DNA of 22,496 nucleotides from a virus: UHGV virus genome UHGV-1752853; one strand, given 5' to 3'. The notes beneath the pieces were generated by a model, which did not search any database, was not told the DNA's origin, and saw only the letters and a list, made by a program, of their open reading frames with translations. Positions 1 to 9,966 of the stretch are shown piece by piece; within the stretch, counting starts at the first letter, position 1, and the number at the start of each line of letters is the position of its first letter. Made by a program: the position numbers and the translations under genes.

Positions 1-83
1 ATCGCGGATTCAGGTGCTGGTACTGAATTCACCGGGAGGCACCCGGCACCATGCATCTGGTGAAATAAATGTGCATACGTAAT

Positions 84-108
84 GCCCCTCTTCGGAGGGG
101 CTTTTTTT
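84..108 (+). terminator. Rho-independent terminator-like hairpin (GCCCCTC-TTCG-GAGGGGC followed by T7)
   Basis: Perfect 7-bp GC-rich stem with 4-nt loop at 84-100 followed by TTTTTTT at 102-108; seen directly in sequence. Confidence 0.55.
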
Positions 109-192
109 CGAAAAAAGCACGCAATGGGCGTGCATTAGCATGAGATATTGAGGCTTTAAATTTTTTCGTGCGGGTTTTAACCCGGTTTCATG

Positions 193-4326: not shown

Positions 4327-4860
4327 ATGAATACAAAAATCAGATACGGCCTGTCGGCTGCCGTTCTGGCACTGATTTCCGCAGGGGCTTCTGCGCCTGA
4401 AATCCTTGACCAGTTTCTGGATGAGAAAGAAGGCAACCACCTGACGGCATACCGTGACGGTACGGGTATCTGGACCATCTGCCGTGGCGCCACAATGGTG
4501 GACGGTAAGCCTGTCGTTCCTGGCATGAAGCTGACGAAGGAAAAATGCGACCGAGTGAACGCCATCGAACGGGATAAGGCGCTGGCGTGGGTGGAGAAAA
4601 ACATCAAAGTGCCACTGACTGAACCGCAGAAAGCGGGCATCGCGTCATTCTGTCCGTACAACATCGGGCCTTCGAAATGCTTCACCTCAACGTTTTACCG
4701 GAAACTGAACGCCGGAGACCGGAAAGGTGCATGTGCTGAAATCCGCCGATGGATATATGACGGCGGCAGGGACTGTCGGAACCGCTCAAATAACTGTTAC
4801 GGGCAGGTATCGCGGCGTGACCAGGAGAGCGCGCTGGCGTGCTGGAGTATCGACAGATAA
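4327..4860 (+). CDS. R: Endolysin, GH24 T4-lysozyme-like with N-terminal SAR/signal-like segment
   Basis: Catalytic-triad-like spacing E-x8-D-x5-T in EGNHLTAYRDGTGIWTICRGAT; weakly hydrophobic Gly/Ala/Ser-rich N-terminus (YGLSAAVLALISAGASA) typical of SAR endolysins paired with pinholins. Confidence 0.85.
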   Translation: MNTKIRYGLSAAVLALISAGASAPEILDQFLDEKEGNHLTAYRDGTGIWTICRGATMVDGKPVVPGMKLTKEKCDRVNAIERDKALAWVEKNIKVPLTEPQKAGIASFCPYNIGPSKCFTSTFYRKLNAGDRKGACAEIRRWIYDGGRDCRNRSNNCYGQVSRRDQESALACWSIDR

Positions 4861-5289: not shown

Positions 5290-5757
5290 ATGAACCGTGT
5301 TCTGTATGTGGTGCTTATTGCCCTGCTGCTTGGTTGTGGAGCGCTGTGGCTGGCAACAGACCATTACCGTGATAACGCCATGACCTACAAAGCGCAGCGC
5401 GATAACAAAGCCAGTGAACTGGAGAAAGCGAATGCAACCATTACTGATATGCAGCAGCGCCAGCGGGATGTTGCTGCACTCGATGCAAAATATACAAAGG
5501 AGTTAGCCGATGCGAGAGCTGAAAATGAAACTCTGCGCGCTGATGTTGCCGCTGGTCGCCGCAGCCTGCGGGTCAACGCCACCTGTGTGTCCACCACAGA
5601 TAAAACCACCGGCACCACCAGCATGGATAATGCAGCCCGCCCCCGACTGGCAGACACCGCTCAACGGAATTATTTCACCCTCAGAGAGCGACTGATGACG
5701 ATGCAGAAGCAACTGGAAGGGGCACAGCTCTACATCAATGAGCAATGCCTCAGATAA
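5290..5757 (+). CDS. Rz: Rz i-spanin (inner membrane spanin subunit)
   Basis: N-terminal TM followed by HYRDNAMTYKAQRD...DVAAGRR...RLADTAQRNYFTLRERL...YINEQC, recognised as lambda Rz-like. Confidence 0.85.
   Translation: MNRVLYVVLIALLLGCGALWLATDHYRDNAMTYKAQRDNKASELEKANATITDMQQRQRDVAALDAKYTKELADARAENETLRADVAAGRRSLRVNATCVSTTDKTTGTTSMDNAARPRLADTAQRNYFTLRERLMTMQKQLEGAQLYINEQCLR
5510..5695 (+). CDS. Rz1: Rz1 o-spanin (outer membrane lipoprotein), embedded in the +1 frame of Rz
   Basis: Lipobox LVAAAC followed by a proline-rich segment; the segment from PPAPPAWIMQPAPDWQTPLNGIISPSE onward resembles lambda Rz1; wholly embedded in Rz. Confidence 0.75.
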   Translation: MRELKMKLCALMLPLVAAACGSTPPVCPPQIKPPAPPAWIMQPAPDWQTPLNGIISPSESD

Positions 5758-6093
5758 AAACCGGTAAGGGATAATCCGCTTAAGATTTACCGGTGGCGAA
5801 GAGAGCCAAAGCATCAAATTACGCGATTACCTGTAGCAGTACAATATATTGTTTACGTTTTCTTATTAATTCCAGATGTATGTCTGTGCGCCGTGTCGTC
5901 GCCGTATTCCCGTATTAACAGAGACCGCAGCCCGACGGGGAGACTCTTCTGCGCGAGTGTGCGGGAATAATCAGAAACGATATACACCGGGTTTTACCGC
6001 GTGAACGGGACGCGGGTTTACCCCACATGGTCGTCCATCCGGTGCGATGGTGGAAGAAACCGGAACACTCAGTACTTGCATGGAAGGAATAAA

Positions 6094-6118
6094 AAAAGCC
6101 GCAGGTGGTATGCGGCAT
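6094..6118 (-). terminator. Minus-strand rho-independent terminator
   Basis: GCCGCA/TGCGGC 6-bp stem (6100-6118 on +) with a 7-nt loop; the A7 run at 6093-6099 becomes a U-run on the minus strand. Confidence 0.5.
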
Positions 6119-6121
6119 AAA

Positions 6122-6211
6122 ATGGCACGAATTGAAGAGTGGTTTATCTTAGCGTTTATATTTTTATCTTATATCTGTGCTGTTGTTCAATTCGTTATTT
6201 TTGTCGGCTGA
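6122..6211 (+). CDS. Candidate 29-aa hydrophobic peptide (possible type I toxin-like ORF)
   Basis: ATG 6122 to TGA 6209-6211; MARIEEWFILAFIFLSYICAVVQFVIFVG; no clear SD; start lies immediately 3' of the hairpin; speculative. Confidence 0.2.
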   Translation: MARIEEWFILAFIFLSYICAVVQFVIFVG

Positions 6212-6226
6212 TTCATCTGCTTATTT

Positions 6227-6275
6227 TTACGTGACTGCTGATTTTTCACGTAATGCATCAGATTAATTTAATCTG
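6227..6275. promoter_or_regulatory. Two adjacent dyad-symmetric elements (candidate operator sites or minus-strand promoter region)
   Basis: TTACGTGA-N11-TCACGTAA at 6227-6253 and perfect palindrome CAGATTAA-T-TTAATCTG at 6259-6275, in an AT-rich intergenic region. Confidence 0.3.
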
Positions 6276-6478
6276 CAGTTGTTATCATTTTTTCGGATAT
6301 TCCGTAATATTGAAGCATTTAATTATATTTATGTACATATTCAGGATGTGTGATTTTACATAACAGTGACAGTAGCTTCCGTTGCAATATGTGGCATGGT
6401 GGCAGATGTTATCACAAGTAATAATGACTCACGGTAAATTTTCATGCTAAATGTTAAATGATTATCTGTGAAATAATA

Positions 6479-6601
6479 ATGGATACCAGAGTTATTTTAG
6501 TCTTTTTTCCTGCTCTTTTATTTGTATCTACGGGGTCTTTCGATGAGATGGAACGTTACAAGGCTGCAAAGGAACATACGAATGGAGATGTGAGAAAATG
6601 A
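6479..6601 (+). CDS. Small ORF (40 aa) with hydrophobic N-terminus, stop overlapping the next start (ATGA)
   Basis: ATG 6479; MDTRVILVFFPALLFVSTGSFDEMERYKAAKEHTNGDVRK; TGA 6599-6601 overlaps ATG 6598 of the downstream ORF. Confidence 0.3.
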   Translation: MDTRVILVFFPALLFVSTGSFDEMERYKAAKEHTNGDVRK

Positions 6602-6846
6602 AATTCCAGCTGGCAAGAATTTATAAAGGTGATCTGTTTGCATGTTTTGGTATTGCAGTAAACGGTGAATTGCTGGAAGGACAATTGTCTTCCCGGATTA
6701 ATACTGAGGCGATAAACTTTCCTTCCGTTACGATCGAATTCCGACTGACCTGTGAAGAAATTGGAAACAGTATTGACATTAACGTGAACGAGATCCTGAC
6801 GAGTAAACACACGGATGAAAGATACCGGAGTTTGCCTCGTCAGTAG
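6598..6846 (+). CDS. Hypothetical acidic protein (82 aa), unrecognised
   Basis: ORF track; preferred over the overlapping minus-strand ORF 6556-6849, which has only a TTG start and no Met anywhere. Confidence 0.4.
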   Translation: MKFQLARIYKGDLFACFGIAVNGELLEGQLSSRINTEAINFPSVTIEFRLTCEEIGNSIDINVNEILTSKHTDERYRSLPRQ

Positions 6847-6858
6847 CAAACGGAGCGT

Positions 6859-7047
6859 TTATTTCATATTGGTTGATGAGAGCATTTTTCTGTCCGCACT
6901 CAGCCTCCGGCGACAGGCCTCAATGACCCATGCTGAAAAATTTCCCGACTCTTTTTTGTCAAGAGCGATATTGATCTGCTCAATCATATGATTCGGAAAA
7001 CGGATATTGCGGGTTGTGGTTCTGCGGGTCCGGTTTTTCGATGACAT
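6859..7047 (-). CDS. Ribbon-helix-helix (Arc/MetJ-like) DNA-binding protein (62 aa)
   Basis: AAGGA SD with 7-nt spacer before ATG on the minus strand; sequence RNIRFPNHMIEQINIALDKKESGNFSAWVIEACRRRL fits a beta-strand/helix/helix pattern resembling P22 Arc. Confidence 0.5.
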   Translation of the reverse strand: MSSKNRTRRTTTRNIRFPNHMIEQINIALDKKESGNFSAWVIEACRRRLSADRKMLSSTNMK

Positions 7048-7087
7048 TGTCTGTTCCTTTATTTCTGCATCCTGACGGAGATTTTAC

Positions 7088-7453
7088 ATGGCGGCATTAC
7101 CTGTACTCCAGAGCCGAATTAAACCCCTGAGCACCCGACGAATGAATGTCCTGCAGGGTGAAGACCGACGCATCAGTGGTCGGGCAAGAGTGAATCTCAA
7201 ACGCAGGATCTGGCAGAGGGATGGCGGTCGCTGTTGTCTTTGTGGGCGTGTTGCTGACCTGTGTGACAGTGAACTCGATCACCGCATTGCTCTTCAGTTC
7301 GGTGGTGGTAATGAGGAGGCCAATCTCTGGACACTCTGTACGGAATGCCATCGTCTGAAGTCAGCCCGTGAGATGGCGAGCGGTATGCCGGATCCGAGGT
7401 TGCCGGAAGTGTCGGGTAGTGCCGACAGAACCGACGACATCATAGGGCTCTGA
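7088..7453 (+). CDS. HNH endonuclease (terminase/cos-associated, HK97 gp74-like position)
   Basis: HNH/zinc motif CCLCGR...ELDHRIALQFGG...NLWTLCTECHRLKS; sits directly upstream of the cos-like region and small terminase. Confidence 0.85.
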   Translation: MAALPVLQSRIKPLSTRRMNVLQGEDRRISGRARVNLKRRIWQRDGGRCCLCGRVADLCDSELDHRIALQFGGGNEEANLWTLCTECHRLKSAREMASGMPDPRLPEVSGSADRTDDIIGL

Positions 7454-7738
7454 CCAGACCCCGGGGGGGAGCTTACGGCGAAAAAAAACGATCGCCACGG
7501 ACACCGCGCCCCCCCTCACGCAGAGAAAAAATTCCCGTTCAGAAGTTATAAACATGTTTATACCATACATGGCGCTTTTCTGCATTTTTTACTTTTAAAT
7601 TCATTGTGTTGCTGGAGAAAAATGTTTATACCCTGTCCCCGCAAAATGTTTACAGGGCAGCGGTAAACATTTCCCCTGTTGCATCCATTCTCACCGGGGT
7701 GATTGCTGAAATTTTTCTGTGTTTTTCCGGAGGGAGGA
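7454..7738. other. Putative cos region: G7/C7 dyad (candidate cosN) plus repeated ATGTTTAYA elements (candidate terminase-binding sites)
   Basis: GGGGGGG at 7463-7469 and CCCCCCC at 7509-7515 in inverted context; ATGTTTATACC at 7554-7564 and 7622-7632, ATGTTTACAGGG at 7646-7657, inverted GTAAACAT at 7663-7670; lies between the HNH and TerS genes. Confidence 0.5.
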
Positions 7739-8317
7739 ATGCTGACGACGCAAAAACGAAAATTTGCGCTGGCGCTGATGTCGGGTAAAAACCGAACGGC
7801 CTCCGCCATTGAAGCAGGCTATTCAGAAAAGTCAGCCAGGTGTAAAGGTTCACAACTGGCAAAAGATCCGGAAGTGCTCGCTTTTATTGCCCGTAAAAAA
7901 TGCGAGATGGTGGAGGTGGATGAGGTTCCTGTTTACCGGAAGAAAAAAACACAGACAGAGGATAACAACCGGTGCTCAGGGACAACAGAAAAGAAAACAC
8001 AGACCGCACCAGAGCCGGATAACGATAAAAGCCTGCCGCCAGTGCCTGCCGGTATACCAGGCGTTGATTACATGGAGGACGGCCTTCCTGACCCGGTGAA
8101 AGCCATGGGCAGGATCCTGGTGGAAAACCTCAGCGTTGATCCGAAACTGGCACTGGATGCGGCCTGGCGACTGGCGCAGTTCACGCACCACAAAAAAGGG
8201 GATGCCGGTAAAAAATCGGCAAAAGGTGAGGCGGCAAAAAAAGCGGCTAACCGTTTTGCCACACCTGCGCCGCCGCCCCGTCTGGTGGTGAATAACAATC
8301 GTGAGGGAAATGAATGA
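7739..8317 (+). CDS. Terminase small subunit, P27 family
   Basis: GGGAGGA RBS then ATG 7739; N-terminal KRKFALALMSGKNRTASAIEAGYSEKSA helix-turn-helix pattern typical of P27-family TerS; 4-nt overlap with TerL. Confidence 0.75.
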   Translation: MLTTQKRKFALALMSGKNRTASAIEAGYSEKSARCKGSQLAKDPEVLAFIARKKCEMVEVDEVPVYRKKKTQTEDNNRCSGTTEKKTQTAPEPDNDKSLPPVPAGIPGVDYMEDGLPDPVKAMGRILVENLSVDPKLALDAAWRLAQFTHHKKGDAGKKSAKGEAAKKAANRFATPAPPPRLVVNNNREGNE

Positions 8318-9966
8318 CACCTGTATGGAGCACGGCATGTCCGGACTGGGCGGCGCGTCTGAAAAAAGGGCAGTCGATAATTCCGGCCCCCATTTATCCG
8401 GACCAGGCCGCGCAGGCACTGGCGATTTTTAAACAACTGCGGATTGTTGATGCACCGGGCAGTCCGGCGTTCGGGCAGGCCTGTGCCCCGTGGGTGTTTG
8501 ACCTGGTGGCGGCCCTGTTTGGCTCCTGTGATGCGCAGACCGGTGTACGCCATATCAAGGAAGTGTTCATTCTGATACCCAAGAAAAACTCCAAATCCAC
8601 GCTGGCCGCCGGGATCATGATGACGGCGCTGTTACTGAACTGGCGGCAGGCGGCGGGCTACACCATTCTGGCACCGACCGTGGAGGTTGCCACCAATGCC
8701 TTCAATCCCGCCCGCGATATGGTTAAGTGGGATGATGATCTGGATGATCTCTGTCAGGTGCAGACGCATATCCGTACCATCACCCACAGGATGACGGACA
8801 CCACCCTGAAGGTGGTGGCTGCGGATCCGAATACAGTGTCCGGTATCAAGTCTGTGGGGACACTGATTGATGAACTGTGGCTGTTTGGCAAGCAGTACAA
8901 GGCAGAGGACATGTTACGTGAAGCCATTGGCGGACTTGCCTCCCGTCCGGAAGGGTTTGTGGTGTATACGACCACACAGTCGAATGAGCCACCCGCCGGG
9001 GTGTTCAGGCAGAAGCTGCAGTATGCCCGTGATGTCCGTGACGGAAAAATTCATGATCCGCACTTTCTGCCGGTGATTTTTGAGCATCCGCCGGAGATGG
9101 TGGCCAGCGGGGAGCACCTGCTGATGGAGAACCTTGCCATGGTGAACCCGAATCTGGGGTATTCCGTGGATGAATCCTTTCAATTCCGAAAGGCAAAGGA
9201 GACGGGTGAAGAGGCTTTTCTCGGATTTATGGCAAAACACGCCAATGTGGAAATCGGTCTTGCCCTGCGCTCTGACCGGTGGGCAGGAGCGGATTTCTGG
9301 GAGCAGCAGGGTCGGAAGATAAGTTTTGAGGATATCCTGGCACGTTCTGAAGTGATCACTGTGGGCATTGACGGTGGAGGGCTTGACGATCTGCTGGGGA
9401 TGTATGTCATCGGCAGGGACCGGGAGAGCCGTGAATGGCTGGGCTGGGGGCATGCCTGGGCGCATGAAACCGCGATGGACAGACGAAAGAGCGAGGCATC
9501 CCGTTTCCAGGATTTTGTGGCCTGTGGCGATATGACCCTTGTCCGGCGGGTCGGGGATGACACGGCGGAGGTGGCGGAATATGTCAGGCGTATCCATGAG
9601 GCCGGGTTACTTGATCGTATCGGCATCGATCCGTCCGGCGTCGGACAAATTCTGGATGCGCTGGTGGAGGCCGGCATTCCGGAAGAGGGGGTGGCGGGGA
9701 TAAGCCAGGGCTGGAAACTGGGCGGTGCCATCAAAACCGCGGAACGCAAACTGGCGGAAGGTGTGCTGGTGCATGGCTGGCAGCCGATGATGGCCTGGTG
9801 TGTGGGGAATGCCAGGGTGGAGCCCAGAGGTAACGCCATTCTCATCACAAAACAGGCCAGCGGGAAGGGGAAGATAGATCCGCTGATGGCGCTGTTCAAT
9901 GCGGTATCCCTGATGTCGCTGAATCCGGAGCCGAAAAAGAAAGAGTACAGGGCTTTTTTCATATGA
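8314..9966 (+). CDS. Terminase large subunit
   Basis: 550 aa; Walker A-like ILIPKKNSKSTLAAG; length and position follow TerS. Confidence 0.85.
   Translation: MTPVWSTACPDWAARLKKGQSIIPAPIYPDQAAQALAIFKQLRIVDAPGSPAFGQACAPWVFDLVAALFGSCDAQTGVRHIKEVFILIPKKNSKSTLAAGIMMTALLLNWRQAAGYTILAPTVEVATNAFNPARDMVKWDDDLDDLCQVQTHIRTITHRMTDTTLKVVAADPNTVSGIKSVGTLIDELWLFGKQYKAEDMLREAIGGLASRPEGFVVYTTTQSNEPPAGVFRQKLQYARDVRDGKIHDPHFLPVIFEHPPEMVASGEHLLMENLAMVNPNLGYSVDESFQFRKAKETGEEAFLGFMAKHANVEIGLALRSDRWAGADFWEQQGRKISFEDILARSEVITVGIDGGGLDDLLGMYVIGRDRESREWLGWGHAWAHETAMDRRKSEASRFQDFVACGDMTLVRRVGDDTAEVAEYVRRIHEAGLLDRIGIDPSGVGQILDALVEAGIPEEGVAGISQGWKLGGAIKTAERKLAEGVLVHGWQPMMAWCVGNARVEPRGNAILITKQASGKGKIDPLMALFNAVSLMSLNPEPKKKEYRAFFI

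What the first reader, a model, noticed from the sequence alone, without database searches (positions are those of the whole stretch)
5758..7087. AT-rich moron island between the spanins and the HNH/cos/terminase block
This 1.3-kb interval is markedly AT-rich compared with flanking phage genes. It contains a minus-strand gene for a 62-aa Arc/MetJ-like ribbon-helix-helix protein with a good RBS, and two + strand small ORFs linked by an ATGA stop-start overlap (40 aa with hydrophobic N-terminus, then an 82-aa acidic protein). It also holds palindromic candidate operator sites and a minus-strand intrinsic terminator. The arrangement looks like an independently regulated accessory module in the position where lambda carries bor. 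I recognise none of the proteins except the RHH fold pattern.
Basis: partly seen in the sequence, partly recalled or inferred. Interest (0 to 1): 0.7.

Follow-up and report, generated by a model that had tools for sequence, protein, structure and literature searches.

The report
Mosaic gap between phage lysis and packaging genes
The AT-rich stretch is real, but it is a patchwork rather than one accessory module: a known uncharacterised prophage gene (ylcI), a small late gene that normally sits next to the phage DNA-cutting and packaging genes, and two conserved non-coding elements that look like RNA.

Summary
The window is the late region of an E. coli lambdoid prophage (Stx-phage-like late region) with an HNH-TerS-TerL packaging block. 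Only 6120-6858 is AT-rich (GC 0.36, against 0.55 for the window).

- **62-aa minus-strand ORF.** It is a YlcI/YnfO (DUF3950) protein, a known but uncharacterised family also found in K-12 DLP12 and Qin. A ribbon-helix-helix fold is plausible but not proven.
- **82-aa ORF.** It is a real gene. It belongs to an unnamed Enterobacterales phage family (phrog_10235, about 230 clusters). In 80 of 80 IMG/VR loci this family lies on the late strand next to, or a few kb from, an HNH gene, and TerS-TerL follow in 67 of them. In about 60 loci it abuts or overlaps HNH. That makes it a late gene of the packaging block, not a lysogen-expressed moron.
- **40/47-aa ORF.** It is not conserved.
- **Palindromes.** They occur at chance frequency and are not conserved.
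- **Minus-strand terminator.** It is real. It belongs to a roughly 105-nt block that recurs in other prophages with unrelated flanks and carries a promoter-like -35/-10 pair. This is a candidate 65-nt sRNA.
- **5887-6075.** This is a structured plus-strand RNA element with covariation, widespread in lambdoid phages and absent from Rfam.

The reading as a single regulated module does not.

The parts
5887..6075 (+). Conserved GC-rich structured RNA element of lambdoid phages. It has a 5' domain at 5894-5982 and a hairpin at 6038-6043 / 6059-6064.
   Evidence: It follows Rz in mEp460, PhiR40_1, 4A7, Stx phages and many E. coli prophages. No frame is open in all copies. Six variable pairs in the 5' domain are kept in 77-78 of 78 sequences (five in all 78) through G-C/G-U or A-U/G-U changes, which pair only on the plus strand. 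Pair 6041-6061 reads GC 42, UA 23, GU 9. No Rfam match.
6091..6116 (-). Intrinsic terminator on the minus strand (GCCGCA-TACCACC-TGCGGC followed by T7).
   Evidence: Found by the terminator scan. The stem is invariant and indels are confined to the loop across 10 copies from unrelated contexts.
6091..6195 (-). Compact conserved block, a candidate sRNA gene. The -35-like hexamer is at 6190-6185 and the -10-like hexamer at 6168-6163. The inferred start is near 6156 and the end near 6091, giving about 65 nt.
   Evidence: A block of about 105 nt is 82-89% identical in about 20 other complete E. coli genomes, two of them on plasmids. In the eight copies inspected both flanks differ, seven lie in the same post-lysis prophage slot, and none has a ylcI homologue in the locus held. 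The alignment keeps TTGA(AC/TT), a 16-nt variable spacer, GATAA(A/G) or TATAAA, an invariant ATT(C/T)GTGCCATTT, and the terminator. Transcription has not been shown.
6122..6211 (+). Small hydrophobic ORF (MARIEEWFILAFIFLSYICAVVQFVIFVG, 29 aa; an upstream in-frame ATG is at 6110). It overlaps the candidate sRNA on the opposite strand.
   Evidence: An ORF of 18-30 aa starting MA(R/Q)IEE and continuing hydrophobic is present in every copy. Indels change the frame after about 6 codons in three lineages, and the SD spacing is poor. No family match. Coding status is doubtful.
6206..6457 (.). AT-rich spacer holding the two palindromes (6227-6253 and 6259-6275).
   Evidence: GC is about 0.32. It is found only in the two versions of this locus and has no match among phage records. 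The palindromes are at chance level and not conserved.
6458..6601 (+). ORF47/ORF40 (alternative start 6479). Probably not a conserved gene.
   Evidence: In the 83%-identical version both ATGs are lost and one-base deletions (two or three, depending on the copy) shift the frame. No family match.
6598..6846 (+). ORF82, a member of an uncharacterised Enterobacterales phage family (phrog_10235) linked to the HNH-terminase block.
   Evidence: phrog_10235 E=2.8e-21. An exhaustive search found 22 representative clusters and a profile search 232 clusters. dN/dS is 0.30 against the sister version. AlphaFold block-mean pLDDT is 81-93 over residues 1-60, a beta-rich fold. Synteny holds in 80 of 80 loci. 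No Pfam, PDB, BFVD or PADLOC match.
6859..7047 (-). ylcI/ynfO-family gene (DUF3950), probably a ribbon-helix-helix protein.
   Evidence: PF13132 scores 68.6 bits against a cut-off of 25. NF041551 scores 34.3 against 30. phrog_949 E=2.9e-31. There are 725 clusters, those with a source name almost all labelled E. coli. Residues 1-49 are nearly invariant and the tail is hypervariable. dN/dS is 0.07 at dS 0.83. The RHH evidence is weak.
7088..7453 (+). HNH endonuclease, the first gene of the packaging block (context; the usual direct neighbour of ORF82 homologues).
   Evidence: PF01844 scores 27.6 bits against a cut-off of 21.4. RefSeq annotates homologous loci as HNH endonuclease followed by terminase small and large subunits.

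Best explanation
The interval is a mosaic junction inside the late operon of an E. coli lambdoid prophage with an HNH-TerS-TerL packaging block. It is not a single accessory cassette. Five things lie here, from left to right.

1. **A structured plus-strand RNA element (5887-6075).** It is shared by many lambdoid phages and is carried on the Q-antiterminated late transcript. Its role is unknown; RNA processing or stability is a guess.
2. **A self-contained minus-strand unit (about 6195-6091).** It has a promoter-like -35/-10 pair and a strong intrinsic terminator. It most likely makes an sRNA of about 65 nt that is antisense to the late transcript.
3. **A locus-specific AT-rich spacer.** It holds a non-conserved small ORF.
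4. **ORF82.** This is a genuine late gene, read from pR' like its neighbours. Its family is a habitual partner of the HNH endonuclease and terminase genes, so it most likely acts with or alongside the cos-cleavage and packaging machinery, or at least in the same late programme.
5. **ylcI.** This is a strongly constrained DUF3950 protein, probably a dimeric RHH DNA binder. It is transcribed against the late operon and here has been recombined in between ORF82 and HNH. Its transcript converges on ORF82 (stop codons 12 bp apart). Nothing stops it before the 6116-6098 terminator, so antisense overlap of the kind reported for ybcW-ylcI in K-12 is expected.

**Shown:** family memberships, synteny, purifying selection, RNA covariation, and the terminator and its conservation.

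**Inferred:** all transcription, the sRNA, the RHH fold, and any packaging role.
For: **Late-operon context**
- STnc100/tR' lies at 1-113. Lysozyme, Rz, HNH, TerS and TerL are all on the plus strand.
- All four terminator-like sites in 5600-7700 are on the minus strand, so nothing stops the plus-strand read-through.

**Mosaicism**
- Each segment has a different distribution among 249 related loci.
- Two versions of the locus exist, A at 99% and B at 83% identity. They are joined to HNH-type or Nu1/gpA-type packaging genes.

**ORF82**
-. Homologues in Klebsiella phage KpF5 and in Klebsiella prophages sit 3-9 nt upstream of HNH.

**ylcI**
-. A convergent ybcW-ylcI excludon is listed for K-12 (PMC12288877).

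**sRNA unit**
-.

**RNA element**
-.
Against: - No expression data were available for any part.
- The -10 of the candidate sRNA promoter (GATAAA) lacks the final T, and the consensus scan did not call it.
- Folding energies of the unit are unremarkable: z = -1.5 and -1.75.
- HK97 itself, the phage in which the HNH protein's packaging role was defined, has no ORF82 homologue. The family is therefore not essential to HNH-terminase packaging.
- Its fold matches nothing known, so the packaging link rests on synteny alone.
- In the B version ORF82 is frameshifted to 55 aa, and ylcI is frameshifted in one genome. The module may therefore be decaying in cryptic prophages.
- RHH is not supported at significance by any sequence or fold search.
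Confidence: 0.6

Rival explanations
1. This is a single independently regulated moron: the RHH protein represses or regulates a two-gene plus-strand operon (ORF40-ORF82) through the palindromes, and the module is expressed from the prophage like lambda bor.
For: - The composition is AT-rich.
- This is the slot where bor and other accessory genes sit.
- One gene is on the minus strand and there is a minus-strand terminator.
- The cargo at this position varies between phages.
Against: - ORF82 homologues occur without ylcI in 79 of 80 loci and belong to the late packaging block.
- ylcI occurs with many different cargoes.
- ORF40 is not conserved.
- The palindromes are at chance level and not conserved.
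- There is no plus-strand promoter or terminator.
Confidence: 0.12
2. The conserved 105-nt block is a type I toxin-antitoxin-like pair. A small hydrophobic peptide (MARIEE followed by a membrane segment) is translated from the plus strand. Its ribosome-binding region and first 12 or so codons are covered by a minus-strand antisense RNA that ends at the 6116-6098 terminator.
For: - Every copy keeps an ORF of 18-30 aa with a charged start and a hydrophobic tail.
- The candidate antisense RNA overlaps its 5' end.
- The block moves as a unit and also occurs on plasmids.
Against: - The reading frame is not conserved beyond codon 6 in three lineages.
- T-rich DNA gives hydrophobic ORFs by default.
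- SD spacing is poor for both candidate ATGs.
- Conservation stops at the terminator tail, so no plus-strand promoter belongs to the block.
- No match to known type I toxin families.
Confidence: 0.1
3. The AT-rich part is decaying, non-functional filler in a cryptic prophage. The terminator and ORFs are remnants with no current role.
For: - In version B ORF82 is frameshifted (55 aa) and ORF40 has been lost.
- ylcI is frameshifted in STEC299.
- The full locus is rare: 4 of 5426 complete E. coli genomes cover at least 80% of it.
- Several loci that carry it are truncated prophages next to host genes (L006 and L007).
Against: - In the window ORF82 is intact, has the family's conserved residues and gives a confident fold.
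- dN/dS is 0.30 for ORF82 and 0.07 for ylcI.
- The 105-nt block is conserved across unrelated flanks.
Confidence: 0.1
4. ORF82 and YlcI form a toxin-antitoxin-like pair, with YlcI as an RHH antitoxin and ORF82 as a small toxin.
For: - YlcI gives a weak PHROG hit to a HicB-like antitoxin (E=0.011).
- ParD2 antitoxin is among the top, non-significant, fold matches.
- The two genes are adjacent.
Against: - The genes are convergent, not in an operon.
- They co-occur in only 1 of 80 ORF82-family loci.
- ylcI is usually found without ORF82.
- No PADLOC or TA family match.
Confidence: 0.02

Closest known systems
YlcI (DLP12) and YnfO (Qin) of E. coli K-12: DUF3950, NCBIfam NF041551, phrog_949
   Same: The 62-aa ORF passes both curated cut-offs. 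It is 77% identical to K-12 YlcI. It has the same place and orientation: on the minus strand, immediately ahead of the first packaging gene and after the variable post-lysis cargo.
   Different: Here it is followed by an HNH-type packaging block rather than a Nu1-type (nohD) block, only 40 bp from the HNH start. Its C-terminal tail differs, as tails do throughout the family. No function is known for any member.
The lambda bor and DLP12 borD-ybcV-ybcW accessory (moron) slot between Rz and cos
   Same: The position is the same. Cargo is variable and compositionally odd, and there are minus-strand genes within the late operon.
   Different: No bor homologue is present. ORF82 is on the late strand without its own promoter or terminator, and it is syntenic with the packaging genes in other genera. 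At most the spacer and the sRNA-like unit behave like inserted cargo.
HK97 gp74-type HNH endonuclease plus terminase cos-packaging module (established knowledge: HNH proteins work with terminase in cos cleavage)
   Same: The window has HNH-TerS-TerL. ORF82 homologues sit inside this block in 80 of 80 loci, and about 60 abut or overlap HNH.
   Different: HK97 has no ORF82 homologue. No biochemical role for such a small partner has been described to my knowledge. In the window ylcI separates ORF82 from HNH by 241 bp.
Arc/Mnt/CopG/ParD ribbon-helix-helix DNA-binding proteins
   Same: The pattern is a basic arm, then NIRFP (strand), helix, G-x-x-S loop and helix. AlphaFold predicts helices at 19-30 and 37-59. 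hhalign puts TRNIRFP on Arc QFNLRWP in register. The top fold hits are the RHH antitoxin ParD2 and the TCP DNA-binding domain, which as I recall is RHH-like.
   Different: No significant sequence or fold score was obtained: hhalign P=0.037, Foldseek E>=3, and no HMMER hits. The model has low confidence (pLDDT 64.6).
Prophage-encoded Hfq-type sRNAs of pathogenic E. coli (Esr41, AgvB, AsxR, Pas sRNAs, STnc100)
   Same: The candidate is short, has a promoter-like pair and an intrinsic terminator with a long U tail, lies in a lambdoid prophage, and is patchily distributed (background in bioRxiv 10.64898/2026.05.13.724894).
   Different: It matches none of the Rfam models for those RNAs. It lies downstream of Rz, not near Q, the esterase or holin genes. 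It is rare, in about 24 of 5426 genomes. No expression evidence exists.

Membership tests
YlcI/YnfO (DUF3950) | Match to Pfam PF13132 and NCBIfam NF041551 above the curated cut-offs | tested here: met
   PF13132 scores 68.6 bits (cut-off 25), E=4.1e-19. NF041551 scores 34.3 bits (cut-off 30).
YlcI/YnfO (DUF3950) | Small protein encoded on the strand opposite the late genes, just upstream of the first packaging gene of a lambdoid prophage | tested here: met
   In the window ylcI is at 7047..6859 and HNH starts at 7088. The layout is the same in DLP12 (ylcI, then nohD) and in RM10042.
Ribbon-helix-helix (Arc/MetJ/CopG) superfamily | Significant sequence or profile similarity to an RHH family | tested here: not met
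   No PDB hit by phmmer or by profile at E<=10. No RHH Pfam family hit in any of 24 members. hhalign against Arc+Mnt gives P=0.037, probability 1.4%, although the alignment is in the expected register.
Ribbon-helix-helix (Arc/MetJ/CopG) superfamily | Strand-helix-helix fold | tested here: inconclusive
   The single-sequence AlphaFold model (pLDDT 64.6) has helices at 19-30 and 37-59 with an extended N-terminus. The best Foldseek hits are TCP-domain and ParD2 proteins, but E>=3.
Ribbon-helix-helix (Arc/MetJ/CopG) superfamily | Dimer that binds operator DNA through the paired N-terminal strands | not testable with these tools
   Needs EMSA or footprinting, or a dimer-DNA structure. The proposed operators are at chance level.
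phrog_10235 (ORF82 family) | HMM match and shared conserved core (Q4, A6, Y9, F14, A20-V21, G23, L25, F48) | tested here: met
   E=2.8e-21 over residues 1-63. The invariant columns are listed in the 66-sequence alignment.
phrog_10235 (ORF82 family) | Lies on the late strand within the HNH-TerS-TerL block | tested here: met
   True in 80 of 80 IMG/VR loci. In the window the strand is the same and HNH starts 241 bp downstream, but ylcI lies between them.
Moron (established definition: an extra transcription unit inserted between genes that are adjacent in related phages, with its own promoter and terminator, expressed from the prophage, often of deviant composition) | Deviant base composition | tested here: met
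   GC is 0.33-0.36 against 0.55.
Moron (established definition: an extra transcription unit inserted between genes that are adjacent in related phages, with its own promoter and terminator, expressed from the prophage, often of deviant composition) | Own promoter upstream and own terminator downstream of the ORF40-ORF82 pair | tested here: not met
   No plus-strand sigma-70-like site and no plus-strand terminator-like site in 5600-7700. The consensus scan is strict, so weak promoters are not excluded.
Moron (established definition: an extra transcription unit inserted between genes that are adjacent in related phages, with its own promoter and terminator, expressed from the prophage, often of deviant composition) | Absent from related phages, whose flanking genes are then adjacent | tested here: inconclusive
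   This holds for the spacer and for the 105-nt unit. It does not hold for ORF82, which is a regular neighbour of HNH in related phages.
Moron (established definition: an extra transcription unit inserted between genes that are adjacent in related phages, with its own promoter and terminator, expressed from the prophage, often of deviant composition) | Expressed in the lysogen | not testable with these tools
   Needs RNA-seq of a lysogen.
Type I toxin-antitoxin | Small hydrophobic toxin ORF conserved as a reading frame | tested here: inconclusive
   An ORF of 18-30 aa is present in all copies, but the frame shifts after about codon 6 in three lineages.
Type I toxin-antitoxin | Antisense RNA with its own promoter and terminator overlapping the toxin's translation start | tested here: inconclusive
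   The terminator is certain. The promoter is inferred only from conserved TTGA-16 nt-(G/T)ATAA(A/G).
Known RNA families (Rfam 15) | Covariance-model match for 5887-6075 or 6091-6195 | tested here: not met
   At gathering threshold the whole window gives only STnc100 at 1-113. At E<=5 the interval 5600-7700 gives only a chance snoRNA hit.

The most novel reading that the evidence does not exclude
At least one of three unannotated features is a new functional element.

1. The ORF82 family (phrog_10235) is an unrecognised small protein partner of HNH-endonuclease/terminase cos-packaging machines in Enterobacterales phages.
2. The 5887-6075 element is a new conserved structured RNA of the lambdoid late transcript. 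It was retrieved from more than 120 IMG/VR contigs, recurs in many complete E. coli genomes, and is absent from Rfam.
3. The 105-nt block is a new prophage sRNA, or a type I TA-like antisense pair, that guards a late-strand peptide.
Probability: 0.3. Interest if true: 0.6.

Novelty: new member of a known kind. Interest (0 to 1): 0.4.

Why it matters
**As posed, the finding is largely ordinary.** The gap between lysis and packaging genes in lambdoid prophages is a known site of mosaic cargo, and its one clearly folded regulator-like gene is the already catalogued YlcI/YnfO family.

**Three by-products are more useful.**
- A small protein family is tied to the HNH-terminase genes in 80 of 80 loci. 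This gives a concrete candidate for an extra component or modulator of cos-type packaging.
- A structured RNA element with covariation sits in the late transcript of a very large number of E. coli prophages and has no Rfam entry.
- A compact terminator-bearing unit recurs with unrelated flanks. It is a cheap target for a Northern blot.

None of these bears directly on virulence or defence as far as the data show.

Tried and rejected
**ORF82**
- Pfam, NCBIfam and PADLOC scans gave nothing.
- Foldseek of the confident ORF82 model against the PDB and BFVD gave no hit better than E=0.2.
- A word-indexed protein search with ORF82 alone found only its two near-identical clusters. The exhaustive search and the profile search were needed to find the family.
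- One 955-aa hit with seven matched stretches (P0015) is a low-complexity repeat protein and was discarded.
- HK97 was checked for an ORF82 or ylcI homologue next to gp74 and has neither.

**ORF40/47, the small hydrophobic ORF and the minus-strand ORFs**
- Pfam (ORF47, the 54-aa 6047 ORF and the 67-aa minus ORF) and NCBIfam and PHROG (all of these) gave nothing. PADLOC, run on ORF47 and the small ORF, also gave nothing.
- tblastn of the small hydrophobic peptide against phage records gave nothing.

**YlcI**
- Searches against PDB sequences, with the single protein and with a profile, gave nothing.

**The AT-rich core**
- blastn of the core against phage records found no match.

**The 105-nt block**
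- A pattern scan found 0 hits in GTDB species representatives, 1 in IMG/VR and 2 in metagenomes. It is rare.
- RNA folding of the unit on either strand is not significantly better than shuffles.

**The GC-rich element**
- The idea that it encodes the inconsistently annotated 'hypothetical proteins' of mEp460, 4A7 and PhiR40_1 was rejected. No frame is open across copies.

**Literature**
- Searches for YlcI, YnfO or DUF3950 function, for the block's sequence, and for sRNAs in this position found nothing relevant apart from the ybcW-ylcI excludon listing.
Full report
**Context**

The window is the late region of a lambdoid prophage.
- It opens with the 3' part of STnc100, the short pR'-tR' transcript.
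- It continues on the plus strand through a large ORF at 218-2215 (syntenic loci carry a SASA-family esterase there), a lysozyme (4327-4860), and Rz (5290-5757) with an embedded Rz1.
- After the interval in question come an HNH endonuclease (7088-7453), TerS (7703-8317), TerL (8314-9966) and the downstream head and tail ORFs.
- Near-identical copies are labelled E. coli. RefSeq genomes with an 83%-identical version annotate the same gene order.

**The observation**

- GC falls from 0.553 (window) to 0.413 over 5758-7087. The AT-rich part is only 6120-6858 (0.364; core 6120-6597 is 0.331). The segment 5758-6119 is 0.494.
- The palindromes are not evidence of anything. Perfect inverted repeats of that size are as frequent in dinucleotide shuffles (12 against 8.4 +/- 2.8; in the core 4 against 3.6 +/- 1.9). 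In the sister version of the locus both left arms carry three substitutions without compensation.

**The 62-aa protein**

- It is a YlcI/YnfO protein: PF13132 at 68.6 bits against a cut-off of 25, NF041551 at 34.3 against 30, and phrog_949 at E=2.9e-31.
- The family has 725 clusters at 90% identity; those that carry a source name are almost all labelled E. coli.
- In K-12 DLP12 the order is rzpD, borD(-), ybcV(-), ybcW, ylcI(-), nohD. In many Shiga-toxin-type prophages it is Rz, a 74-aa ORF, a TonB-family ORF, ylcI(-), HNH, terminase. So ylcI is a fixed neighbour of the packaging genes and the cargo to its left varies.
- Residues 1-49 are almost invariant and the C-terminal tail is hypervariable.
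- Between the two versions of this locus, codons 1-49 have dS 0.83 and dN/dS 0.07. The conservation is therefore on the protein.
- The ribbon-helix-helix idea fits the pattern of basic arm, NIRFP, helix, GxxS loop, helix. It also fits the predicted helices at 19-30 and 37-59, an in-register hhalign alignment to Arc/Mnt (P=0.037), a weak HicB-like PHROG hit, and the fact that the best, non-significant, fold hits are ParD2 and TCP-domain DNA binders.
- No search reaches significance. I treat RHH as likely but unproven. No paper in the library gives a function. K-12 ybcW-ylcI is listed as a convergent 'excludon' in RNA-seq data (PMC12288877).

**The 82-aa ORF**

- On its own it looked like an orphan, with two clusters in 5.8 billion proteins. 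It nevertheless matches phrog_10235 (E=2.8e-21).
- tblastn found 42% and 29% identical homologues in a Klebsiella and a Yersinia phage. An exhaustive phmmer search found 22 representative clusters. A profile search found 232 clusters; the source names cover at least ten Enterobacterales genera, including Klebsiella, Raoultella, Citrobacter, Enterobacter, Serratia, Salmonella and E. coli, and all are 'hypothetical' with no Pfam domain.
- Against the sister version, codons 1-53 give dN/dS 0.30.
- With a 66-sequence alignment AlphaFold gives block-mean pLDDT of 81-93 over residues 1-60, a four-stranded beta fold with two short helices. It matches nothing in the PDB or BFVD.
- The informative result is synteny. 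I fetched 80 IMG/VR loci using ORF82 similarity alone. In every one the gene lies on the same strand as, and within a few kb of, an HNH gene, and TerS and TerL follow in 67 of the 80 (several of the rest have little sequence downstream).
  - In about 60 loci HNH starts between -12 and +28 nt from the ORF82-family stop codon.
  - In 8 loci the order is HNH, ORF82, and in the 7 with enough downstream sequence TerS follows.
  - In 19 loci one or both genes of a glycosyltransferase pair (phrog_1579 and phrog_854) appear, either between ORF82 and HNH or just before ORF82 (examples).
  - Only one of the 80 has ylcI nearby.
- HK97 itself lacks the gene.
- ORF82 is therefore a late-operon gene of the packaging block in a subset of HNH-type phages. 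It is not a partner of ylcI and not a typical lysogen-expressed moron. In the window the usual ORF82-HNH contact has been interrupted by ylcI.
- What the protein does is unknown. A role with or beside HNH and terminase is the best guess, and it rests on synteny only.

**The 40/47-aa ORF**

In the 83% version both candidate ATGs are gone and one-base deletions (two in most copies, three in STEC299) shift the frame. It has no family match. I do not count it as a gene.

**The terminator and its surroundings**

- A distant blastn search of 6080-6600 against complete E. coli genomes showed that only the first 100 nt or so recur elsewhere. About 20 further genomes and two plasmids carry them. I inspected eight of these copies: seven lie between the lysis and terminase genes of other prophages and one on a plasmid, and the sequence on both sides is unrelated to the window's.
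- On the minus strand the alignment of ten copies reads as follows: conserved CG(A/T)(A/G)TTGA(AC/TT), a 16-nt variable spacer, (G/T)ATAA(A/G), a variable stretch of about 30 nt, an invariant ATT(C/T)GTGCCATTT, then the hairpin GCCGCA-loop-TGCGGC and a T-run. Indels occur only in the loop.
- That is the conservation pattern of a small gene with its own promoter and terminator. It predicts an RNA of about 65 nt, from near 6156 to near 6091.
- The eight other copies I inspected have no ylcI homologue in the locus held. The terminator is therefore not simply 'the ylcI terminator', although in the window it would also stop ylcI read-through.
- On the plus strand the same block holds a short ORF, MA(R/Q)IEE followed by a hydrophobic tail, 18-30 aa in every copy. 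The frame is not conserved, the SD spacing is poor and conservation stops at the terminator tail. A type I toxin-antitoxin reading is possible but less likely than a plain sRNA.
- Folding energies are unremarkable. Rfam has no match. The block is rare.

**The GC-rich segment 5887-6075**

- It recurs downstream of Rz in mEp460, PhiR40_1, 4A7, Stx phages and many E. coli prophages. Depositors annotate it inconsistently as small proteins on either strand. RefSeq annotates nothing there.
Together with the other loci in hand it gave 78 unique variants. No reading frame is open in all copies.
- In the 5' domain (5894-5982) six base pairs vary. Five are kept in 78 of 78 sequences and the sixth in 77, always through changes that pair only on the plus strand (U-G/U-A, C-G/U-G).
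- In the hairpin 6038-6043 / 6059-6064 the pair 6041-6061 is G-C in 42 sequences, U-A in 23 and G-U in 9, with three non-pairs and one gap.
- This is a structured RNA on the late transcript. I could not find it in Rfam or in the papers searched.

**Synthesis**

- Each segment has its own distribution among 249 related loci.
  - The GC-rich element is very common.
  - ylcI is common.
  - The ORF82 family is moderately common and tied to HNH.
  - The 105-nt unit is rare but autonomous.
  - The AT spacer and ORF40 are private to this locus.
- All terminator-like sites in 5600-7700 are on the minus strand. The Q-modified late transcript should therefore read straight through on the plus strand, carrying the structured element and ORF82.
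- ylcI and the candidate sRNA are read against it. The ylcI and ORF82 stop codons are 12 bp apart with no terminator between them, so antisense overlap is expected.
The reading as one regulated cassette, with an RHH regulator, two cargo genes and operators, is not supported.

**Limits**

- There are no expression data.
- The sRNA promoter, the RHH fold and any packaging role of ORF82 are inferences.
- In the B version ORF82 and sometimes ylcI are frameshifted, so parts of this locus may be decaying in cryptic prophages.

Noticed in passing
window 1-113: This is the 3' part of STnc100 (RF02076, 77.9 bits), cut off by the window edge. It marks the pR'/tR' start of the late operon.
   Followed up: no
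L031:5324-7356, L034:5573-7614, L028:5208-6668 and 19 of the 80 loci L169-L248: A glycosyltransferase pair lies between or next to ORF82 homologues and the HNH-terminase genes in prophages of Enterobacteriaceae, Serratia and Citrobacter. The pair is a 485-aa GT2-like protein (phrog_1579) and a 197-aa 'glucosyltransferase' (phrog_854). A glycosyltransferase in a packaging or head module is unusual and its target is unknown.
   Followed up: partly
L002:3329-3655 (E. coli RM10042) and many other E. coli genomes: In most E. coli relatives a 108-aa 'TonB family protein' occupies the slot that ORF82 and the AT-rich spacer fill here. A near-consensus minus-strand promoter-like site (TTCACA-16-TATAAT) lies inside it at L002:3483-3456.
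   Followed up: no
P0008 (124 aa) and window 6047-6064: One ORF82-family protein from elsewhere starts MVEETG, the same residues encoded by ATGGTGGAAGAAACCGGA in the loop and 3' arm of the 6038-6064 hairpin. In some phage the GC-rich element therefore probably lies close upstream of an ORF82 homologue, and gene callers start the ORF inside the element.
   Followed up: no
L042:2501-2582 (plasmid pCRST010, NZ_AP045769.1) and NZ_CP051728.1: Copies of the 105-nt terminator-bearing block occur on two large E. coli plasmids. On pCRST010, the only one inspected, it sits among IS elements and TA-gene fragments, next to a partial DUF1378 prophage gene.
   Followed up: partly
window 5758-5886: The 129 bp just after Rz, including the hairpin ACCGGTAA...TTACCGGT at 5760-5794, match 11 of the ORF82-family IMG/VR loci. 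They do not match the A or B versions of the AT-rich locus. This marks another mosaic joint at 5886/5887.
   Followed up: no
window 5510-5695: An Rz1-type lipoprotein ORF is embedded in Rz in the +1 frame (61 aa, lipobox-like LVAAAC). The spanin pair is therefore complete.
   Followed up: no
P0002 and P0170: Source names assign near-identical E. coli prophage proteins to 'Veillonella sp.' (MAG) and 'Staphylococcus aureus'. This is most likely contamination or mis-binning in those assemblies.
   Followed up: no
L027:3438-4073 (Yersinia phage vB_YenS-P840 ORF71): Here the ORF82-family core is the N-terminal third of a 211-aa protein encoded directly after the HNH gene at the right end of the genome. 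This suggests the core can act as a domain.
   Followed up: no
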